A DNA stretch of 64,000 bases from the NCBI GenBank assembly GCA_963668425.1, contig OY764332.1, positions 188,943-252,942 on the forward strand, given 5' to 3'. The DNA comes from Minisyncoccota bacterium (GTDB lineage: Bacteria; Patescibacteriota; Minisyncoccia; Phycocordibacterales; JABAAK01). Positions 11,294 through 58,188 of the stretch are shown one piece after another; positions within the stretch are counted from its first letter, which is position 1; every line of letters starts with the position of its first letter. Position numbers and translations under genes: made by a program. The notes beneath the pieces were generated by a model. It did not search any database, had not been told where the DNA came from, and was given only the letters and a program-made list of their open reading frames with translations.

Positions 11294-11566
11294 GTGCTAT
11301 CAGTATACTCTGTGTGAGCAATATCTTGCTGCGCTTTATGCGCTCCAACCTGCGCCATGAACATTAAGCATTGGGCTGGATATACCTCTTTTGAGCATCT
11401 CCACTCTTTCTGCAAATTGCTTTTGTAACTTTTCTGGTAATTTTTTATAACACAAATAGAAAACCGAACCGATGCACAATCTCTTTCTTGTATGTTCTGA
11501 TATCTACAGATGTCTTCATGTCGTTAATGATATACAGCCCCCATAAAAACATCAATTGCGACACTC

Positions 11567-12277
11567 TTACCTCTTACTAACAACAATATCGTCAAAATGC
11601 TTGTTTTGTGTTGCTGTTAACATATCTTTTCGTATCAATTCTAATACCGCAAGAAAAGAAATAATTTTTTCCTGCTTGTCTGCTTTTGCGGATAACGACT
11701 GAAACGATACTGACACCCGTTTTGTTACTGCGGCAAGCACTCGCTCAATTATCTCCTCTATCCGCACTTTTGCTCTGACTTTTTTCTGTGGTGGCTCCCG
11801 CAGAAATGATAATCCTTGTAATACAGCATCCGCATTGCGTTGTAACCCTTTCACGGTACATGAGTTATCAGGAAGAAACATAACCTGTTTTGTCGTGCTC
11901 TGTATTGCTACTACGGATGACCGTTTTTTCCAGCTGTTCAGTGCCGGCACTACTTGCATGCGGATGAAGTCAAATAATTTCATTCTGTCTTCTAGCTCGG
12001 CAACATCCACCTCTTCTTCTTCAGTATATTCCAAAACTGGCAACAGTGACCTTGACTTGATTACTATCAAGATAGATGCGATATGAATAAAGCGCGCCAC
12101 TTCCTCTGCCGGTACTGCTGCCATCTCACGAACATATCTCATATAGTCAGCTGTTATTTTTGCTAATGAGATCGTGTTGATTTGCAGTTTTCGTTTTTCT
12201 ATTAACTGGTGCAGTAAGTCCAGCGGACCTTCAAACTGCTCCAACGACACGATGTACTCCTGCTGTTCATTGCTCAT
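11567..12277 (-). CDS. scpA: segregation and condensation protein A (kleisin)
   Basis: LEQFEGPLDLLHQLIEKRKLQINTISLAKITADYMRYV is an ScpA N-terminal signature. The start was chosen at Met20 of ORF 11567..12334; it overlaps the 3' end of aspS by ~10 nt. Confidence 0.75.
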   Translation of the reverse strand: MSNEQQEYIVSLEQFEGPLDLLHQLIEKRKLQINTISLAKITADYMRYVREMAAVPAEEVARFIHIASILIVIKSRSLLPVLEYTEEEEVDVAELEDRMKLFDFIRMQVVPALNSWKKRSSVVAIQSTTKQVMFLPDNSCTVKGLQRNADAVLQGLSFLREPPQKKVRAKVRIEEIIERVLAAVTKRVSVSFQSLSAKADKQEKIISFLAVLELIRKDMLTATQNKHFDDIVVSKR

Positions 12278-13607: not shown

Positions 13608-13823
13608 ATATGTATTTTATGTATATAACAGAAATAGTATATCACACTATCTTATCTACCTTTAATCTCCTATTTTGTCATCTTGAGTGTTCTGATTGCT
13701 GTTGTGATAAGTTTGGGGATTGGGATGCCTGCTTGCACGGTTAATACTCCACCGAGTAATAATCAGTATCTGACAACTCTTCCAGATCTATTGGACTTCC
13801 ACCTGCATTTCGGAAACCTGTTG

Positions 13824-14084
13824 TTATATTTTCTTGAGTGTAGTCTTATATCCAAAATAATCTTCTATCGCCTTCAGCATTCTTTTTGCCGATACAACAC
13901 TACCACTCATAATGTATTCGTCAGTGTTCCGTGATTCAAATACATCGTCAATAATAATATCAACCCCTTGTTTAATTTCTTCTATAATTACTTGCGATAA
14001 CAGATCACGCTCTTCCCGCCTAAAAGGGCTAGTCGCACATATAGTCATTGAAAATTTCTTTTCTAGTTTCTTTTTATACTCCAT
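13824..14084 (-). CDS. hypothetical protein (island cargo)
   Basis: 86-aa ORF in an AT-rich block with no recognisable motif. Confidence 0.35.
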   Translation of the reverse strand: MEYKKKLEKKFSMTICATSPFRREERDLLSQVIIEEIKQGVDIIIDDVFESRNTDEYIMSGSVVSAKRMLKAIEDYFGYKTTLKKI

Positions 14085-14118
14085 ATGCCTTCGCTTACTA
14101 TAATTTTACCCTGTCTTT

Positions 14119-14301
14119 TTAGAGTTTGCTGAGCACCTCTAACCAAATGCTTCCATTTTTTTCATCACTAAGCATATTCATTTTATCAATGCATTCTTTC
14201 ACTGTTTTACAACCATACTCTTTTTTCATCTCTTCCATAAAGGCATCTTTGTAATTTTTAACATGTAAGAAATATAGTAAAAGCGGAACTGCCTCCAGCA
14301 C
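14119..14301 (-). CDS. hypothetical small protein (island cargo)
   Basis: 60-aa ORF; weak. Confidence 0.25.
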   Translation of the reverse strand: MLEAVPLLLYFLHVKNYKDAFMEEMKKEYGCKTVKECIDKMNMLSDEKNGSIWLEVLSKL

Positions 14302-14347
14302 CCGCCTTACCTGAATATAACCCTCATTTTATTGCTATACTAAAAAC

Positions 14348-16198: not shown

Positions 16199-16290
<92 letters not shown>

Positions 16291-27215: not shown

Positions 27216-28167
27216 TTTGAGCAAATACACGAATAGGTATTTCGGTGTTCTCACCCTGAACAGAAATATCAAGCTTTCTACCCTCCTTTAGATGGCTTGT
27301 TTCGTTATTTACAAACCACCTGTATTGTATCGCATTTTTTTCAAAATCGGACTGATTGAAGTAAAATGGGTACACTGAAGCCGTAATTTCCTCACTCCCG
27401 AGAGAAAGATTTTTGGAGAAAACCCGATCTCGAGCAAGTCCATATAGTAAGGTGTGTGGATATACTAATAATCGCGGTTCAATGATAGGAACATTAATGA
27501 TTTTTTCAAAGGCAACCTTGCCGCTTTTAATGAGTGTTGCTTCAACCTGTACAATGATATACCTATTCAAATAACTTCCACCATCTTCATACACCACACT
27601 ACTAACTCCGGGACCCCGACTGCTATGATATCGTGATTCAATCATCCAACGAAATGAAAAGTCCCTCTCGGTATATATAACACCATCTTGGTCAACATAC
27701 TGTATTTTTGCTGAAAGCTTTATCGGTGTCTGTGGTCCTGCGAGCCGATGTCCCCGATATAGTGGCGTGACTACTGAATCCGCCTCCCACAACACATCAA
27801 AAATAACTGGTCGTATCCATCTGGAAATATCTATAAATCTTTTGTCGCCTTGTGAATCAAAGTAATGTATTCGTGCGTTCACTCGCTTTGGTGCGCTGCT
27901 GGCAATTTCGGTAATCTCCATCTTGTTTGTGTACTCTGCCCGCTCAGTGCCGTCAACATACCATGTGACCAATTGAATACTGGAGATAAATGATTTGTTA
28001 GATCTGATGGTGAAATCAACATACTTACCTGGTGACGGGTACGACTCACTTACAACAATTTCATATGCATCATAACTCCCTTGCACTTGCGCGAATGCAG
28101 TGTGAGAAAGCATTAAAAATCCACTCAAAAAAACAATGTATGCATAGAAAAGAAATAGCGTTCGCAT
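27163..28167 (-). CDS. secreted hypothetical protein
   Basis: Signal peptide MRTLFLFYAYIVFLSGFLMLSHTAFAQ. No recognisable domain. Confidence 0.5.
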   Translation of the reverse strand: MRTLFLFYAYIVFLSGFLMLSHTAFAQVQGSYDAYEIVVSESYPSPGKYVDFTIRSNKSFISSIQLVTWYVDGTERAEYTNKMEITEIASSAPKRVNARIHYFDSQGDKRFIDISRWIRPVIFDVLWEADSVVTPLYRGHRLAGPQTPIKLSAKIQYVDQDGVIYTERDFSFRWMIESRYHSSRGPGVSSVVYEDGGSYLNRYIIVQVEATLIKSGKVAFEKIINVPIIEPRLLVYPHTLLYGLARDRVFSKNLSLGSEEITASVYPFYFNQSDFEKNAIQYRWFVNNETSHLKEGRKLDISVQGENTEIPIRVFAQNENKDLQQSDIQFTFRL

Positions 28168-45870: not shown

Positions 45871-45950
45871 GCTGCTGTCAGTATACCGCACGTCAACGTT
45901 CCTTATTCTGCTCTTGTGGTGTCTATACGGCTGTGTTATCATGTACTCTA

Positions 45951-46634
45951 ATGATATTAACTGATCAACAAATAGCTCCGATAGATGTAGAAAAGCGGCG
46001 TAAGAGTGGTTTTGATGTGGGAGATACTGTTCGTGTCCATCAAAAAATTACTGAAAAGGATAAAATTCGTATACAGGTTTTTGAGGGTACTGTTATAGCC
46101 CGCAAACATGGCACTGAGCCGGGTGCAACATTTACTGTCCGTCGTGTTGGTACTGACGGCATAGTGGTGGAAAAGATATTCCCTCTGTATACCCCCACCA
46201 TAGATCGCATAGAAATATCACAAAAAATTAAAACTCGACGTGCAAAATTGTACTTCCTTCGCGGAAGAACACCAAAACAAATCCGAGAAAAACTTCGTAA
46301 TACCGTGGCATCTATAAAAGATGCTGTGGTGCCAGAGCCAAGACAGCAGGAGAAGACGAAGGAGGGGCGTGAAGTACAACAGCATGAAGGTGAAGAAGGG
46401 TCGGAAAAACAACCTACAGCACAGCAAGAAGATCTGCCAGAGCAGGAGAAGGAGGAAGAAGTGGAAAAACAACCTACAGCACAGCAAGATGAACAACAAA
46501 AACAAGGAAAGGAAAGTGCTTCAAAGCAGCAGGAAGAGGTGCCGAAGGCACAGTCAGATGTACATAGCGCTTCGGAATCTGAACAAACAAAACAAACGGC
46601 AACACCTCAACAACCTGGTACTACTGATGCATAA
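45951..46634 (+). CDS. rplS: 50S ribosomal protein L19 with ~110-aa E/K/Q-rich C-terminal extension
   Basis: MILTDQQIAPIDVEKRRKSGFDVGDTVRVHQKI...RRVGTDGIVVEKIFPLYTPTIDRIEI. The tail has tandem EKQPTAQQ(E/D) units. The track ORF starts at 45810, but that extension overlaps the divergent gene. Confidence 0.85.
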   Translation: MILTDQQIAPIDVEKRRKSGFDVGDTVRVHQKITEKDKIRIQVFEGTVIARKHGTEPGATFTVRRVGTDGIVVEKIFPLYTPTIDRIEISQKIKTRRAKLYFLRGRTPKQIREKLRNTVASIKDAVVPEPRQQEKTKEGREVQQHEGEEGSEKQPTAQQEDLPEQEKEEEVEKQPTAQQDEQQKQGKESASKQQEEVPKAQSDVHSASESEQTKQTATPQQPGTTDA

Positions 46635-46645
46635 ATGGTCAGTTG

Positions 46646-52980: not shown

Positions 52981-54693
52981 TTAAAAGGTATTTGTGGAAC
53001 GGATTCTTGCGTTTATGAGTGGTATAACGGATTCTTCACCGGCAATAAACACTAGGATGGATCGGCCAAAGAAGTAATAGAAAATCTCTTTTTGACTTGA
53101 CGGGTTTCGTATCACACGAACATCTTGGTTATCAATAATACGAGATTCAACAATCACATTACTTACTTTTGACTGTTGGAAGAAGTTCGGAAAAACAGCA
53201 AGGAAGGCGTTGATTGCATTCTTTTCCCAGTTCCGTATCCACACAAATGCATCACCGTATTTTTTTACTGATGCAATGAATATGCCGTTTACTTCAGTTT
53301 GTGTCAGATATTTTCCGACGAAATAGTAATCGTCAAAGGCGTTTTGTAACCCTCCTGGAAAACGCACATTGAAAGTGTCGGAAAAATCCTCAAAGCTGAT
53401 TTGCAATTCTTTTTCTTCAACCGGCTTATACGGCACATACTTTGTTATTGTGTCCTGTTCACCTTTTTTTTCTGTGATAGATTGCCATGTATCAGATAGG
53501 GCTATTGTATCTGATGTATCTACAAATACTTGATTTTCACTGTTGAGCACATCGGATACCAGAGTTATATCTGCTGTGCCGTTGCTGTTTTCGATCGGTT
53601 TTTCTGCAGGAGACAGTGCGAGGAATATAATAGAAAAAAGCAACCCGGCGAGTAGGAAAAAGACGATGGCAAGTAATAACATATTTTGTCTCCGAAGTGG
53701 CTTGTTCGGTACCGGCTCATCCGAAGAAGTGGCATATGACCGGACATCCCGTGCTTTTAATCCTATTTGTTGTAATTTTTTCTTTTTTTGCTTGAAATCT
53801 TTCCATGCGTCCTGGATTGCTCCCTTTTCAATAACTTCCTGCTGCTTCTGCTTTAGTGACTCCCTTTTTTCTTTTGTAAAAACATCTTTGGGGCGTATTC
53901 TGCCTTGGGCTCGTGCAAAAATACCCTTCCTTTCTGCTGTTGGATCGCTTGATTTTTCTGTGCTGCTTGGTGCCCTTGTATCAGGACTCTTAGTTGGCGT
54001 GGCAGGTTTTGACTGTTCTCCTTTTGGGGTACTTGCTGTACCGGAGACAGGTTTTCCTGATGGCTCTTTTTGTTGTTCTTTGGTAGCATCATGCGCTGAT
54101 TGCATGTATGCAGTTGCTCCAGAGAGAATACGAGTTATGTTTTCTTGATCGATGGATTTTGCATCGGCATTAATGGTGGATGCTTTTGGTGTTTGTGTGC
54201 CAACGCCCTGCTTTTGTTTTCCTTGGACGAAATTTTTATACCTGTCCCGCAACACCACTGACTCCTTCATGACGTCTTTAGTTTTTCTGAGATACTCTTC
54301 CTGCGCTTGTCGCTTTTCTTCTGCCTCTTTTGCTAGTATGGTGCGTAATTCGGCACCACCTTTTGTTTGTGCCATGTCTCTTGTGTCCTGATGATAGGTT
54401 CGCAAGACGGGTACCATGTACTCTTTTTTGTTTTCTTTGTCTTTTTTTGGAAGTTTTTCTGTCGTTGTGTTTTTATTTTGTATCTCTTGCTCAACGGTAT
54501 TTTTTTTGTGCTCATTTTTTTTACCCTCTCGCATAAATTCACCGGACTCATCAACAGCTGAAGCGTTAATAGACGCGAGGTCAATGGTGTCTTTTTGCGG
54601 CAGGTTTGTCGCTTTCTCATTACCTTGCAAGGAAGATGTGTCAGATTTTACTTTATTTTTATCACTGGGTATCTGTTTTTTATCTTGTGCCAT
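52981..54693 (-). CDS. membrane-anchored hypothetical protein with long K/E/Q-rich cytoplasmic N-terminus
   Basis: ~340 aa of low complexity, a TM (LLLAIVFFLLAGLLFSIIFLAL), and a ~200-aa outside domain. Confidence 0.5.
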   Translation of the reverse strand: MAQDKKQIPSDKNKVKSDTSSLQGNEKATNLPQKDTIDLASINASAVDESGEFMREGKKNEHKKNTVEQEIQNKNTTTEKLPKKDKENKKEYMVPVLRTYHQDTRDMAQTKGGAELRTILAKEAEEKRQAQEEYLRKTKDVMKESVVLRDRYKNFVQGKQKQGVGTQTPKASTINADAKSIDQENITRILSGATAYMQSAHDATKEQQKEPSGKPVSGTASTPKGEQSKPATPTKSPDTRAPSSTEKSSDPTAERKGIFARAQGRIRPKDVFTKEKRESLKQKQQEVIEKGAIQDAWKDFKQKKKKLQQIGLKARDVRSYATSSDEPVPNKPLRRQNMLLLAIVFFLLAGLLFSIIFLALSPAEKPIENSNGTADITLVSDVLNSENQVFVDTSDTIALSDTWQSITEKKGEQDTITKYVPYKPVEEKELQISFEDFSDTFNVRFPGGLQNAFDDYYFVGKYLTQTEVNGIFIASVKKYGDAFVWIRNWEKNAINAFLAVFPNFFQQSKVSNVIVESRIIDNQDVRVIRNPSSQKEIFYYFFGRSILVFIAGEESVIPLINARIRSTNTF

Positions 54694-54808
54694 ACACTTA
54701 TCATACCTTGATTTTGCGGTATGTATTGGTGATGTATATCATATACCAATGACTTGTGTTGTGTAGTTATTTTGGTATACTGTTTCTGATTACGGTATAC
54801 ATCTATAC

Positions 54809-55429
54809 ATGTTTCAATACAAAAAAGCAGTCCAAGTACTTAATTTTTTTGCTCGCAAGGCAGAGGAGGAGGGGGTTTCGCTGTATAAGACGAATATGCT
54901 GAAGTTGGTATACTTTGCTGACAAAAAACACCTCAGGGAATCATTGCGGACTATTACCGCGGACAGTTATATTGCAAAACAGAAGGGACCTGTGGCACGA
55001 GATACCTGCGCCCTCATTGAAACTCAGGCAGGTACTACAGAACAGGAATCGGAAACTGTGCAATATGCGAATACATTTATTATTTCTGAGGAAAAATGGC
55101 GACCATGGAATAGGAAAAAAGGTATAAAAATAATGTCAAAAAAGGAAGTTGATAAAAAGGTGCTTTCAGCGTCAGACATAGAAACACTTACTTTTATATG
55201 GAGTGTATGCAAAGCGGACTTGCGGGACTTATGGAAAAAAACTCATTTATATCCGGAAGGGAAAAAAGCAGAGGGAGGGAGGGCATGGGCGGAAATTAAG
55301 GAAGAAGAGCTTTTCAGTACAATTGAGAATGATCCACTCGGTGAGCAAACTGTTGCAGAGATTAAAAATGCTGAAGAGTTGTACCGAGAGCGGAAGGAGG
55401 CGAAAATGGCATTCGGAATAACAACCTAA
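54809..55429 (+). CDS. Panacea/DUF4065-domain protein (SocA/GepA-like putative antitoxin)
   Basis: MLKLVYFADKKHLRESLRTITADSYIAKQKGPVARDTCALIE fits the DUF4065 core (KLqKLLYyA...GPV). Confidence 0.65.
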   Translation: MFQYKKAVQVLNFFARKAEEEGVSLYKTNMLKLVYFADKKHLRESLRTITADSYIAKQKGPVARDTCALIETQAGTTEQESETVQYANTFIISEEKWRPWNRKKGIKIMSKKEVDKKVLSASDIETLTFIWSVCKADLRDLWKKTHLYPEGKKAEGGRAWAEIKEEELFSTIENDPLGEQTVAEIKNAEELYRERKEAKMAFGITT

Positions 55430-55455
55430 ATGGCAGTATGAAGGTAGGAAGTGTT

Positions 55456-55770
55456 ATGGTCTCAAGTTTGGGTGGCAAGCAGCATAGGGCGGTCTGTGTT
55501 GGGGTGGATTCAAACGGTTTTGTTGCTCTGGTATTAGCGACATCAAAAGTAGCGAAAGTAAAAGAGCTTGCATCCCGTAGGCAAAATTTGCGTACTGCGG
55601 AATCTGTCGTTGAAGTTACGCAGGAGGAGTATCAAAGCGGTCTACATCCAGATATTTGCTCACTTACCAAACATACTTGTTTTGATTGTAATGAAATAAT
55701 TACTCATCATGTTGACTTATTACTTGAAAAAATACCCCCCCTTGTGATCCACTGCCGATGGATATTTTAG
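55456..55770 (+). CDS. small protein downstream of the Panacea gene; candidate toxin (weak MazF/PemK-like pattern)
   Basis: An AGGAAG SD lies 4 nt before ATG 55456; the track ORF starts at 55438. GGKQHRAVCVGVDSNGFVALVLATSK loosely resembles the MazF RPALVLS...VIVAPITS pattern. Confidence 0.4.
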   Translation: MVSSLGGKQHRAVCVGVDSNGFVALVLATSKVAKVKELASRRQNLRTAESVVEVTQEEYQSGLHPDICSLTKHTCFDCNEIITHHVDLLLEKIPPLVIHCRWIF

Positions 55771-55893
55771 ATACAATCCGACAAGTGATTATTCTTTCTC
55801 CTGAGATAGAGACATATACTAAAGAACGATTCAAAATAACATGATCATTTTCCTCCTCTTTACAATGTCTGTCGTGCAGTAGCTATGTGCATA

Positions 55894-58188
55894 TTAGTTT
55901 CGTCCGTGCCTCCTTTCTTTTTTGCCAAAAAATCCTCTATCTTTACCTCCCCTATCTCCTCCACCTCCCCTGCCCCCTCTACTATCTCCTCTGTCTCCTC
56001 TGCCCCCTCTACTATCTCCTCTGCCCCCTCTGTCTCCTCTACCTCGCCTATTGTTGTGTGATTTTTGATTTGGCGATTGAGTATGGTCAGCATTCTTCAG
56101 TACTGCATCAAAAAATGACGGATCTCTATCTTTTACACTAAGTGCAATTCGTCCATCAGGACGAACCTCTTTTACTACAACTGGCACTATATCTCCAGAG
56201 GAAACCACACTATCTACCGTATCAATTCTCTGTGGAGAGAACTCAGACACATGAATCATGCCATCTTTACTCGGTGAGAGCTCCGCAAACGCGCCAAAGT
56301 CGGTAATATTCTTGATGGTGGCATCAATTGTGTCACCAACTTCAAATGAGCGAGTCATGTCGTGTATTTTCTGTATTACTGAGGCAACTGCTTCTTTGTT
56401 GCCACTCACTGAAACTGTTCCGTCGTCTTCAATATCAATACTATCAACACCAGTATCAGTACGAATCTGCTTGATGGTTTTTCCTCCAGTGCCAATAACC
56501 ATACCGATACAGTCAGGATCAATAGTAATTGTTTCTATATGTGGCGCGTGTGGTGAAAGTGAAGTACGTGGTTCAGGTAACTCTTGCGTGATAGTTTCCA
56601 AGATGTGTAGTCGCGCATCTTGCCCTTTTTTCAGTGCCTCAGAAAGGATCGGGAGTGTGATACCTTCAATTTTTACATCCATTTGGATTGCAGTTATACC
56701 ATTTTTTGTGCCGGCGACTTTAAAATCCATAGCACCGTGATGATCTTCTGGGCCCTGTATGTCAGTAAGCAAAACGTGCTTATCCCCTTCTTGCATCAGC
56801 CCGATGGCAATACCGGCAACCGGCGCGGTAATCGGTACACCACCGTCCATTAGTGCGAGCGTAGAAGCACAAACAGAACCCATTGAGGTGGAACCATTTG
56901 ACGCGAAGCATTCAGAAACTAGACGCATTGTATATGGAAAATCATTCTGAGAAGGCAATACGTTACGTAGTGCCTTCTCAGCAAGTGCTCCGTGTCCGAT
57001 TTCTCGTCGCTTTGGACTGCCGATCCGCCCAACTTCACCCGTTGAATATGGTGGAAAGTTATAATGATGCATAAATCGCTCATCAGTTTCTGGGTCTTCA
57101 ATAGTGTTCAGTGATAACGCGTCTCCCGGACTGCCGAGCGTTAATGCAGTAAACACATGTGTGCCTCCTCGGTAAAAGATACCGCTGCCGTGCAATCGCG
57201 TGGACATACCACCAGCTTGTGCATATAGTGGCCTTACTTCGTCCATACTTCTTCCGTCGACACGCCGGCTATTTTTGACTGCCTCACTGTGTACCAGAGC
57301 ATCAGTCATCTCCTCAAAATATGAATCGGTGACCTTTCTTTCGTCAGGGATGCCTTTTTCCTCAAGGAGTTTCATCCATTCTTCCTGTACTGAGCCCAAA
57401 CTCATTTCAGAAGAAAACATTGCCTGCTCTATTTTTGGGCGGATGATGGTATCAAAAATTTGTTTTGCCTCGGCGGACAGTTCGGTGACGGAAATTTCTT
57501 TTTTCTCCTGTCCGACCTGTGTGATGATATCTTGCTGAAATTTTTGTAAGTCGGCAAGTGTGTGCACTGCCTGTTCGCTGACCTGCATAATCTGTTCTTC
57601 TGAAACCTCTTTACCCTCCATCTCTATCATGGTGATTGTATTTTCTTTGCCGCACAAAAGAATATGGTCGGTTAGATCTTTTGCTTCTTCAAAGTTGGTG
57701 AATGGTTGCCAGTTATTCGTGGTTTGTGAAAACCGAACAGCGGATATCGGTCCGTTCCACGGGATAGATGAGGTGCCGAGTGCAAGCGATGCTCCAATGA
57801 CCGCAAGTACATCGGGGTTGTATGAGCCGAATGAAAGTACCATTGCCACAACCTGTACTTCTTTGTGGAGTTCCTTCGGGAAGAGAGGGCGGATGGTTCG
57901 GTCTATAATCCGTGCGTTCAGCACTGCTTCCTGTGATGGTCGCCCTTCCCGTCGCACAAAGCGACTACCTAATATCGCGCCGACTGAGTAGAATCGCTCT
58001 TCAAACTCAACAGAGAGTGGAAAATAATTTTGTGTTGCTTCATGTTCTGACATAGTTGCTGATACAAACACAACTGTATCTCCTGCTTCTATAAAGACAG
58101 AGCCGCCGGCATTTTCGGCGAGGTTAGTGAATGTTGCAGTTATGGCAACATCGTTGATTGTTGTAGTAAAGGATTTTTTTTGTTGCAT
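55894..58188 (-). CDS. pnp: polyribonucleotide nucleotidyltransferase (PNPase) with RG-rich C-terminal tail
   Basis: Two RNase PH domains, KH and S1 domains. The tail is RRGRGDRGGRGDSRGGRGDRGDSRGGRGGGGDRGG. Confidence 0.9.
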   Translation of the reverse strand: MQQKKSFTTTINDVAITATFTNLAENAGGSVFIEAGDTVVFVSATMSEHEATQNYFPLSVEFEERFYSVGAILGSRFVRREGRPSQEAVLNARIIDRTIRPLFPKELHKEVQVVAMVLSFGSYNPDVLAVIGASLALGTSSIPWNGPISAVRFSQTTNNWQPFTNFEEAKDLTDHILLCGKENTITMIEMEGKEVSEEQIMQVSEQAVHTLADLQKFQQDIITQVGQEKKEISVTELSAEAKQIFDTIIRPKIEQAMFSSEMSLGSVQEEWMKLLEEKGIPDERKVTDSYFEEMTDALVHSEAVKNSRRVDGRSMDEVRPLYAQAGGMSTRLHGSGIFYRGGTHVFTALTLGSPGDALSLNTIEDPETDERFMHHYNFPPYSTGEVGRIGSPKRREIGHGALAEKALRNVLPSQNDFPYTMRLVSECFASNGSTSMGSVCASTLALMDGGVPITAPVAGIAIGLMQEGDKHVLLTDIQGPEDHHGAMDFKVAGTKNGITAIQMDVKIEGITLPILSEALKKGQDARLHILETITQELPEPRTSLSPHAPHIETITIDPDCIGMVIGTGGKTIKQIRTDTGVDSIDIEDDGTVSVSGNKEAVASVIQKIHDMTRSFEVGDTIDATIKNITDFGAFAELSPSKDGMIHVSEFSPQRIDTVDSVVSSGDIVPVVVKEVRPDGRIALSVKDRDPSFFDAVLKNADHTQSPNQKSHNNRRGRGDRGGRGDSRGGRGDRGDSRGGRGGGGDRGGKDRGFFGKKERRHGRN

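What the first reader, a model, noticed from the sequence alone, without database searches (positions are those of the whole stretch)
54809..55770. Panacea (DUF4065) antitoxin-like gene with a tightly linked downstream small gene: candidate toxin-antitoxin pair
The 206-aa protein carries the DUF4065/Panacea core (MLKLVYFADKKHLRESLRTITADSYIAKQKGPV). Panacea domains are established as promiscuous antitoxins that pair with many unrelated toxin folds. A ~104-aa ORF follows on the same strand, 9-26 nt downstream, with its own AGGAAG SD. It shows only a faint MazF/PemK-like pattern (HRAVCVGVDSNGFVALVLATSK), so it may be a toxin type not yet catalogued with PanA. The pair is wedged between a membrane protein gene and pnp.
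Basis: partly seen in the sequence, partly recalled or inferred. Interest (0 to 1): 0.65.

Follow-up and report, generated by a model that had tools for sequence, protein, structure and literature searches.

The report
PanA antitoxin with broken MazF-like toxin

Summary
The PanA gene (54809-55429, 206 aa) is real: Pfam SocA_Panacea scores 46.1 bits against a cut-off of 25.7. The downstream ORF is also a real gene, but its listed end (55770) is an artefact. A C7 run at 55735-55741 shifts the frame. Adding one C gives a 135-aa protein (55438-55844) that aligns end-to-end with intact 133-143-aa homologues.

PanA paired with MazF-like toxins is already published (Kurata et al. 2022, clusters T5, T6 and T25), so the toxin class is not new. 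The sequence family, seen only in metagenome assemblies and in Patescibacteria wherever a taxon could be inferred, is undescribed.

In the window's own lineage the toxin is decaying. It is frameshifted here and in a 97.6%-identical relative, and cleanly deleted in a syntenic relative that keeps PanA. A sequencing error at the only long G/C homopolymer in the window cannot be excluded.

Verdict: new member of a known kind; modest interest.

The parts
54773..54781 (+). Extended -10-like promoter element TGGTATACT (TGnTATACT), about 28-36 nt upstream of the PanA start codon
   Evidence: A (TG)nTATACT element lies 25-40 nt upstream of the PanA start in eight of the nine loci examined: the window, L001-L006 and L008, but not L009, in different genomic contexts. 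The consensus scan, which requires a -35 hexamer, did not call it. Promoter function is inferred.
54742..54800 (.). Inverted repeats built on GTATAC cores that overlap the promoter-like element; possible operator
   Evidence: TATACCAA/TTGGTATA at 54742-49/54772-79, and GTATACTGT/ACGGTATAC at 54775-83/54792-800. Short repeats; function is inferred only.
54809..55429 (+). panA: Panacea (DUF4065) domain antitoxin gene, 206 aa, intact
   Evidence: Pfam PF13274, 46.1 bits against a 25.7-bit cut-off, residues 31-146. Orthologues are 45-82% identical with a conserved C-terminal extension. AF2 model: pLDDT 90.4, pTM 0.89, with a C-terminal helix at 182-201. dN/dS 0.079 against L001.
55438..55844 (+). 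MazF-fold partner (PanT-like toxin) gene, 135 codons once corrected; frameshifted as sequenced. The open ORF 55438-55770 gives 110 aa, of which only the first 101 residues are native
55735..55741 (+). C7 homopolymer: the frameshift site. C8 would restore the reading frame
   Evidence: It is the only G/C homopolymer of 7 nt or more in the 64-kb window. Intact homologues have no homopolymer tract here.
55743..55844 (+). Out-of-frame remnant encoding the conserved C-terminal helices (CDP...SP...KERF), including the family-invariant residues S121 and K129

Best explanation
The locus is a two-gene PanA-PanT toxin-antitoxin module, type II as far as can be inferred. It was inserted between pnp and the downstream membrane-protein gene in one Patescibacteria lineage.

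The module appears to carry its own TGnTATACT promoter. It encodes first the antitoxin PanA: a Panacea domain plus a conserved C-terminal helical extension. Eight nucleotides downstream it encodes a 135-aa toxin with a MazF/PemK-type SH3-like barrel and C-terminal helices.

By analogy with the experimentally validated MazF-like PanTs, the intact toxin is most likely a sequence-specific endoribonuclease that blocks translation. PanA would neutralise it by direct binding.

The family's conserved residues are H16, T35-S36, D83-C84-N85, S121 and K129. H16 and T35 occupy the positions of the MazF catalytic residues Arg25 and Thr48.

In this window the toxin gene is inactivated by a -1 frameshift in a C7 tract, which removes the C-terminal helices including S121 and K129. 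PanA stays intact. This copy is therefore most likely a decaying module with a surviving (orphan) antitoxin.

Shown: domain and fold assignments, conserved gene pairing, the insertion, the frameshift, and the deletion in a relative.
Inferred: toxicity, RNase activity, neutralisation by binding, promoter function, and that the frameshift is biological rather than a sequencing error.
For: - PanA domain.
- Conserved pairing: a PanA gene lies directly upstream of every partner homologue examined, with gaps of -11 to +13 nt. Loci: L002-L009 and the distant code-25 loci L010-L013.
- The neighbours differ in each locus, so the two genes move as a unit.
- Insertion: none of 80 Patescibacteria pnp loci has PanA or the partner near pnp. 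In several, the membrane-protein homologue follows pnp directly.
- Profile comparison: hhalign of the 145-sequence family against BsMazF gives 92.6% probability, E 4.6e-7, over 97 columns, with H16 on R25 and T35 on T48. The BsMazF sequence was verified against 4me7_A.
- MazF catalysis: Arg25 and Thr48 are the catalytic residues (PMC7354611).
- Precedent: MazF-like PanTs are toxic, inhibit translation, and bind PanA (PMC8832971).
- Frameshift.
- Decay:
  - L001 (PanA 82% identical, fully syntenic) has a clean deletion of the partner ORF.
  - L007 (97.6% nucleotide identity) is also out of frame at the same tract, by a different indel.
  - Between the window and L007 the partner shows 6 nonsynonymous and 3 synonymous changes, against 12 and 36 in neighbouring genes (Fisher p = 0.02).
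  - The window otherwise has long intact ORFs despite about 75 A/T homopolymers of 7 nt or more.
Against: - No sequence library recognises the partner: Pfam, NCBIfam, PADLOC and PHROGs.
- The PDB sequence search found nothing at default thresholds.
- Toxicity and RNase activity are untested.
- The Arg that aligns with MazF Arg25 in the close subfamily is kept in only 16 of 145 members. Active-site equivalence therefore rests on His16 and a one-residue register difference between two profile alignments.
- A one-base indel in the window's only long G/C homopolymer is the classic signature of a sequencing or assembly error.
- L007 is visibly error-rich (15 gap openings in 5.4 kb, and broken genes that are intact in the window), so it is weak independent support.
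- The substitution counts are small.
- No terminator or -35 element was found.
Confidence: 0.7

Rival explanations
1. The module is an intact, active PanA / MazF-like toxin pair. The frameshift is a sequencing or assembly error: C8 read as C7 in the only long G/C homopolymer of the window.
For: - The defect is a single-base homopolymer indel.
- It is the only G/C run of 7 nt or more in 64 kb.
- Adding one C restores perfect end-to-end alignment, including all invariant C-terminal residues.
- Related assemblies such as L007 show many homopolymer indels.
- PanA is under strong purifying selection.
Against: - About 75 A/T homopolymers of 7 nt or more in the window break no long ORF.
- An independent assembly (L007) is also out of frame at the same tract.
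- The sister lineage L001 has really deleted the gene.
- The ratio of nonsynonymous to synonymous changes in the partner is raised.
Confidence: 0.3
2. The poly-C tract is a functional switch. Through programmed ribosomal or transcriptional slippage, or phase variation, full-length toxin is made only in a fraction of cells or transcripts.
For: - The tract is slippery: 7 C in the window, against a different length and composition in L007.
- Both close relatives are out of frame at exactly this site.
Against: - Intact homologues (L002, L003, L005, L006, L008, L009) read through in one frame and have no homopolymer there. Recoding is therefore not a trait of the family.
- No stimulatory structure was sought or seen.
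- The gene is deleted outright in L001.
- The raised nonsynonymous rate fits loss of function.
Confidence: 0.04
3. The partner is a PanA-associated MazF-fold protein but not a MazF-type endoribonuclease. It could be a CcdB-like poison of another target, or a non-toxic effector or sensor partner.
For: - The canonical MazF Arg is replaced by Tyr or Phe in most members.
- The family has its own invariant D-C-N, S121 and K129 signature, with no MazF counterpart identified.
- There is no sequence-profile membership in PemK.
Against: - The Thr48 equivalent is conserved in 142 of 145 members as T or S. An invariant His sits at or next to the Arg25 position.
- The experimentally studied MazF-like PanTs inhibit translation.
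Confidence: 0.12

Closest known systems
PanAT modules with EndoA/PemK/MazF-like PanT toxins (Kurata et al. 2022 PNAS, clusters T5, T6, T25; validated pairs from Pseudomonas moraviensis and Bifidobacterium ruminantium)
   Same: - A Panacea-domain antitoxin is encoded first. A small toxin follows within a few nucleotides (published gaps -8 to +9; here +8, and -11 to +13 in homologues).
- For T6, as here, the MazF-like nature of the toxin is visible only by remote-homology or fold methods.
- The expected mechanism is translation inhibition by an RNase, neutralised by direct PanA binding.
   Different: - The present family was found only in metagenome assemblies. Where a taxon could be inferred it was Patescibacteria, including UGA=Gly lineages. 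It was absent from annotated plasmids and phages.
- The published survey held only a few Saccharibacteria, with an HTH-PanA/T14 architecture.
- This copy is frameshifted.
MazF/EndoA/PemK/Kid endoribonuclease toxins (Pfam PF02452 PemK_toxin; CcdB/MazF superfamily)
   Same: - Profile alignment along nearly the whole length.
- Conserved Thr at the Thr48 position.
- A C-terminal helix.
   Different: - 8-19% identity, and no PF02452 hit at E <= 1.
- An invariant His (mostly followed by Tyr or Phe) where MazF has Arg25.
- An extra helical insertion after the T-S motif, and invariant D-C-N, S121 and K129.
- The antitoxin is PanA, not a MazE/PemI protein.
SocAB (type VI TA; SocA is the founding Panacea-domain protein)
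   Same: The antitoxin carries the same Pfam domain, SocA_Panacea.
   Different: - The NCBIfam SocA equivalog model scores 17.7 bits against a cut-off of 190.
- The partner is MazF-fold, not SocB.
- SocA acts as a ClpXP adaptor rather than a binding inhibitor (established knowledge, not tested here).

Membership tests
Panacea-domain antitoxin (PanA; Pfam PF13274 / DUF4065) | Match to the SocA_Panacea profile above the gathering threshold | tested here: met
   46.1 bits against 25.7, E 1e-11, residues 31-146 covering profile positions 2-107 of 113. Homologues are pre-annotated PF13274.
Panacea-domain antitoxin (PanA; Pfam PF13274 / DUF4065) | Conserved two-gene arrangement with an adjacent toxin-like gene | tested here: met
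   A partner homologue lies directly downstream of PanA in L002-L013, in varied contexts.
Panacea-domain antitoxin (PanA; Pfam PF13274 / DUF4065) | Neutralises and binds its cognate toxin | not testable with these tools
   Needs toxicity-neutralisation and pull-down assays.
SocA (type VI antitoxin, NCBIfam NF047745 equivalog) | Score above the equivalog cut-off | tested here: not met
   17.7 bits against a cut-off of 190.
MazF/PemK toxin (Pfam PF02452) | Match to the PemK_toxin sequence profile | tested here: not met
   No PF02452 hit at E <= 1 for the window ORF or for 10 family members. The profile search of PDB sequences also found no MazF.
MazF/PemK toxin (CcdB/MazF fold superfamily) | SH3-like barrel with a C-terminal helix, superimposable on solved MazF/Kid structures | tested here: met
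   [not shown]
MazF/PemK toxin (CcdB/MazF fold superfamily) | Catalytic Arg (BsMazF Arg25) and Thr (Thr48) | tested here: inconclusive
   The Thr equivalent is conserved as T or S in 142 of 145 members. In the window protein R17 aligns to Arg25 with the small profile, but Arg is present in only 16 of 145 members. With the large profile the invariant His16 aligns to Arg25.
MazF/PemK toxin (CcdB/MazF fold superfamily) | Sequence-specific endoribonuclease activity and growth arrest | not testable with these tools
   Requires expression and RNA-cleavage assays.
Type II toxin-antitoxin module (generic) | Two small co-directional genes, tightly spaced or overlapping, patchily distributed as an accessory unit | tested here: met
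   The gap is 8 nt here, and -11 to +13 nt in homologues. The module is absent from 80 related pnp loci and sits in different contexts elsewhere.
Published PanT clusters T5/T6/T25 (Kurata 2022) | Sequence homology to the cluster members | not tested
   Only accession numbers are given in the supplement. Family members here carry no accession numbers.

The most novel reading that the evidence does not exclude
The partner represents a previously undescribed branch of MazF-fold toxins, possibly specific to CPR bacteria (376 representatives, including UGA=Gly lineages). Its active site has been rebuilt: an invariant His in place of the MazF Arg, plus invariant D-C-N, Ser and Lys. It may therefore have a different catalytic chemistry or target from MazF.

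A further possibility is that the PanA antitoxin is retained under selection after toxin loss because it has a function of its own, such as anti-addiction against related toxins or sensing.
Probability: 0.2. Interest if true: 0.5.

Novelty: new member of a known kind. Interest (0 to 1): 0.3.

Why it matters
- It adds a Patescibacteria (CPR) branch to the PanA toxin-antitoxin network. It also shows that a MazF-fold toxin family of several hundred clusters is invisible to Pfam, NCBIfam, PADLOC and PHROGs, so it would be missed in defence and TA censuses of these reduced genomes.
- The family's His/Thr-Ser/Asp-Cys-Asn signature is a testable variant of the MazF active site.
- For this window the practical lesson is annotation. 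The gene is 135 codons with a frameshift, not a 104-110-aa ORF, and the locus looks like a TA module caught in the act of losing its toxin.
- None of this overturns current understanding.

Tried and rejected
- **Sequence profiles for the partner:** Pfam, NCBIfam, PADLOC and PHROGs gave no hits.
- **Profile search of PDB sequences:** only noise, with E > 0.05.
- **tblastn against annotated plasmids and phages:** no match.
- **Cluster look-up to link distant members to published accessions:** all are metagenome-only and unnamed.
- **AFDB50 fold search:** library unavailable.
- **Foldseek of the PanA model against PDB:** nothing meaningful, best E 0.19 and TM <= 0.27.
- **Consensus promoter and terminator scan:** no + strand promoter and no terminator. 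RNA folds of the convergent 3' region are not better than shuffles, with z +1.1 and -0.6.
- **Flanking direct repeats as insertion scars:** none convincing.
- **Programmed frameshifting:** rejected as a family trait, because intact homologues lack any tract at that site.
- **Start codon at 55456 with the AGGAAG Shine-Dalgarno:** rejected in favour of 55438, because the MKxG N-terminus is conserved.
- **First C-terminal dN/dS slice:** it had an off-by-one error, and was corrected.

Full report
**1. Observation**

The window holds a 206-aa ORF at 54809-55429 (+) and, 8 nt downstream on the same strand, a 110-aa ORF at 55438-55770. They lie between a 570-aa gene without family matches (52981-54693, -) and pnp (55894-58188, -). 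Beyond pnp come a NYN-domain gene and rpsO.

The first protein matches Pfam PF13274 SocA_Panacea at 46.1 bits against a gathering score of 25.7. It scores far below the SocA equivalog cut-off of NCBIfam, 17.7 against 190. The second ORF matches nothing in Pfam, NCBIfam or PADLOC.

**2. The small gene is longer than listed, and broken**

Word-based searching found only two homologues of the 110-aa ORF. I therefore fetched the genomic contexts of the PanA orthologues, and these showed a conserved downstream gene of 133-143 aa.

The window protein loses the alignment after CFDCNEI. Translating the other frames showed that the conserved C-terminus (CDPLPMDILDTIRQVIILSPEIETYTKERFKIT*) continues in another frame to 55844. 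The switch point is a C7 run at 55735-55741.

Adding one C gives a 135-aa protein that aligns end-to-end with the intact homologues. M1, K2 and G4 are invariant in that alignment.

**3. The pairing is conserved and mobile**

A PanA gene lies immediately upstream of every partner homologue examined.

| Locus | Partner state |
|---|---|
| L002 | intact, missed by the gene caller |
| L003 | intact |
| L004 | 1-nt insertion |
| L005 | intact |
| L006 | intact |
| L007 | frameshifted |
| L008 | intact |
| L009 | intact |
| L010-L013 (E about 1e-14 to 1e-17) | intact |

L010-L013 come from organisms that read UGA as Gly. The flanking genes differ in each locus: ribosomal proteins, rpoB, pilin-like genes, restriction enzymes, Fic genes.

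In 80 Patescibacteria genomes retrieved through pnp (identity <= 53%), neither gene is present near pnp. The pnp-NYN synteny is kept in about 70 of them, and in several the membrane-protein homologue follows pnp directly. The module is therefore a lineage-specific insertion.

A TGnTATACT element (TGGTATACT at 54773-54781) sits 25-40 nt upstream of PanA in eight of the nine loci examined. This suggests the module brings its own extended -10 promoter. That is an inference.

**4. What the partner is**

The family has 14 members by word search. By exhaustive profile search it has 376 representatives at E <= 1e-3. None has a Pfam domain.

An AlphaFold2 model of the corrected window protein, built with 13 sequences, is confident: pLDDT 90.7, pTM 0.85.

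- **Foldseek against the PDB:** the top 50 are MazF/EndoA/MoxT/Kid toxins, with one CptN entry. Probability is 1.00 for the top 44, and TM-scores across the list run 0.43-0.61 (query-normalised) and 0.45-0.74 (target-normalised) at 8-17% identity.
- **Profile comparison:** a 145-sequence family profile aligns to B. subtilis MazF (sequence verified against 4me7_A) with hhalign probability 92.6% and E 4.6e-7 over 97 columns.

MazF catalysis depends on Arg25 and Thr48 (PMC7354611). In the family, the Thr48 position is T or S in 142 of 145 sequences. The Arg25 position, or its neighbour, is an invariant His (143 of 145). The Arg present in the window protein (R17) is kept in only 16 of 145.

Further invariant residues are S36, D83-C84-N85, S121 and K129. 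The last two lie in the segment the frameshift removes.

I conclude that the partner is a divergent MazF-fold toxin, most likely an endoribonuclease with a His/Thr active site. The enzymology is inferred.

**5. PanA**

The PanAs paired with this family share one architecture. It includes a conserved C-terminal extension (THxYPEG ... EEELFS ... ND.LG ... ELY.E...A..AFG) beyond the Pfam domain. The model (pLDDT 90.4, pTM 0.89) ends in a long helix at 182-201. It has no solved structural neighbour.

Ernits et al. 2023 (PMC10440598) show that PanA neutralises either through the Panacea core or through appended elements such as two C-terminal helices. Which applies here is untested.

**6. State of this copy**

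As sequenced, the toxin gene is broken. Evidence that this is biological:

- The window is 87% coding with long intact ORFs, despite about 75 A/T homopolymers of 7 nt or more.
- The 97.6%-identical relative L007 is also out of frame at the same tract, by a different indel.
- The fully syntenic relative L001 (PanA 82% identical) has deleted the partner ORF. It keeps only about 14 nt after the start codon and the stop codon, while PanA remains intact.
- Between the window and L007 the partner has 6 nonsynonymous and 3 synonymous changes, against 12 and 36 in the neighbouring genes (Fisher p = 0.02).

Evidence for an artefact:

- It is a one-base indel in the only G/C homopolymer of 7 nt or more in the window.
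- L007 is itself rich in homopolymer indels.

I put about 0.6-0.7 on genuine decay. Programmed frameshifting is unlikely, because intact homologues have no tract at that site. PanA shows dN/dS 0.079 between the window and L001. Most of that divergence may predate the loss of the toxin, however.

**7. Comparison with what is known**

Kurata et al. 2022 (PMC8832971) established PanA as a hyperpromiscuous antitoxin. They list several PanT clusters (T5, T6, T25) that are EndoA/PemK/MazF-like by HHpred or CDD, in antitoxin-first order with gaps of -8 to +9 nt.

The P. moraviensis and B. ruminantium toxins were shown to be toxic, to inhibit translation and to be neutralised by their PanAs. Complex formation with PanA was shown by pull-down for the P. 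moraviensis pair.

What is new is modest:

- A sequence family that no curated library covers.
- It was found only in metagenome assemblies, and where a taxon could be inferred it was Patescibacteria, including code-25 lineages.
- It was outside the taxon sampling of the published survey, which held only a few Saccharibacteria with a different architecture.

Whether it is homologous to T5, T6 or T25 could not be tested.

**8. Verdict**

This is a real but ordinary toxin-antitoxin module: a new member of a known kind. Its toxin gene is probably decaying in this lineage. Interest 0.3.

Noticed in passing
window 55894-56060 (3' end of pnp, - strand): The PNPase ends in an Arg/Gly/Asp-rich low-complexity tail (...RRGRGDRGGRGDSRGGRGDRGDSRGGRGGGGDRGG...). 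It is encoded by a 30-nt tandem repeat of 3 copies at 86% matches (55952-56042). The L001 orthologue is 25 aa shorter. An RGG-like tail on a bacterial PNPase is unusual.
   Followed up: partly
L010-L013 (for example L010:1336-2335, L013:393-1441): These distant PanA-partner modules have in-frame UGA at conserved Gly positions, for example in the PanA GPV motif. The hosts therefore use genetic code 25. The database proteins P0048 and P0056 carry Trp at these sites because they were translated with code 4.
   Followed up: yes
L008:1515-5536: Three separate PanA genes lie within about 4 kb. One is paired with the MazF-fold partner and another with a 70-aa ORF. A DUF3800 gene lies among them, and giant 6589-aa and 2426-aa genes flank them. 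This looks like a small island of PanA modules.
   Followed up: no
L004:4629-5031: The partner gene of this PanA orthologue carries a 1-nt insertion in an A-rich stretch that is not a long homopolymer. It splits the gene, and the database protein P0035 is the C-terminal fragment. This is a second, independent disruption of the toxin family.
   Followed up: partly
window 54905-54914: A second exact copy of TTGGTATACT, the promoter-like element at 54772-54781, lies inside the PanA coding region (codons KLVYFA). It could be chance or an internal promoter.
   Followed up: no
L002:6087-7175 and L009:3721-4830: Fic-domain genes sit 0.3-1.5 kb from the PanA-partner module in two unrelated loci. This may reflect clustering of toxin or defence genes.
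   Followed up: no
window 11294-12266, 13608-14347, 27273-28031, 45943-46645: Four stretches of 0.7-1 kb have no ORF of 100 aa or more and no Rfam match. Only one tRNA (Ser-GGA, 16199-16290) is found in the whole 64 kb.
   Followed up: no
window 52981-54693 (-): This 570-aa protein has no Pfam match. It has a long Lys/Glu/Ser-rich N-terminal half, one hydrophobic segment, and a C-terminal domain that is weakly conserved downstream of pnp in other Patescibacteria (21-27% identity). It evolves fast: dN/dS 0.148, and 70% amino-acid identity to L001.
   Followed up: partly
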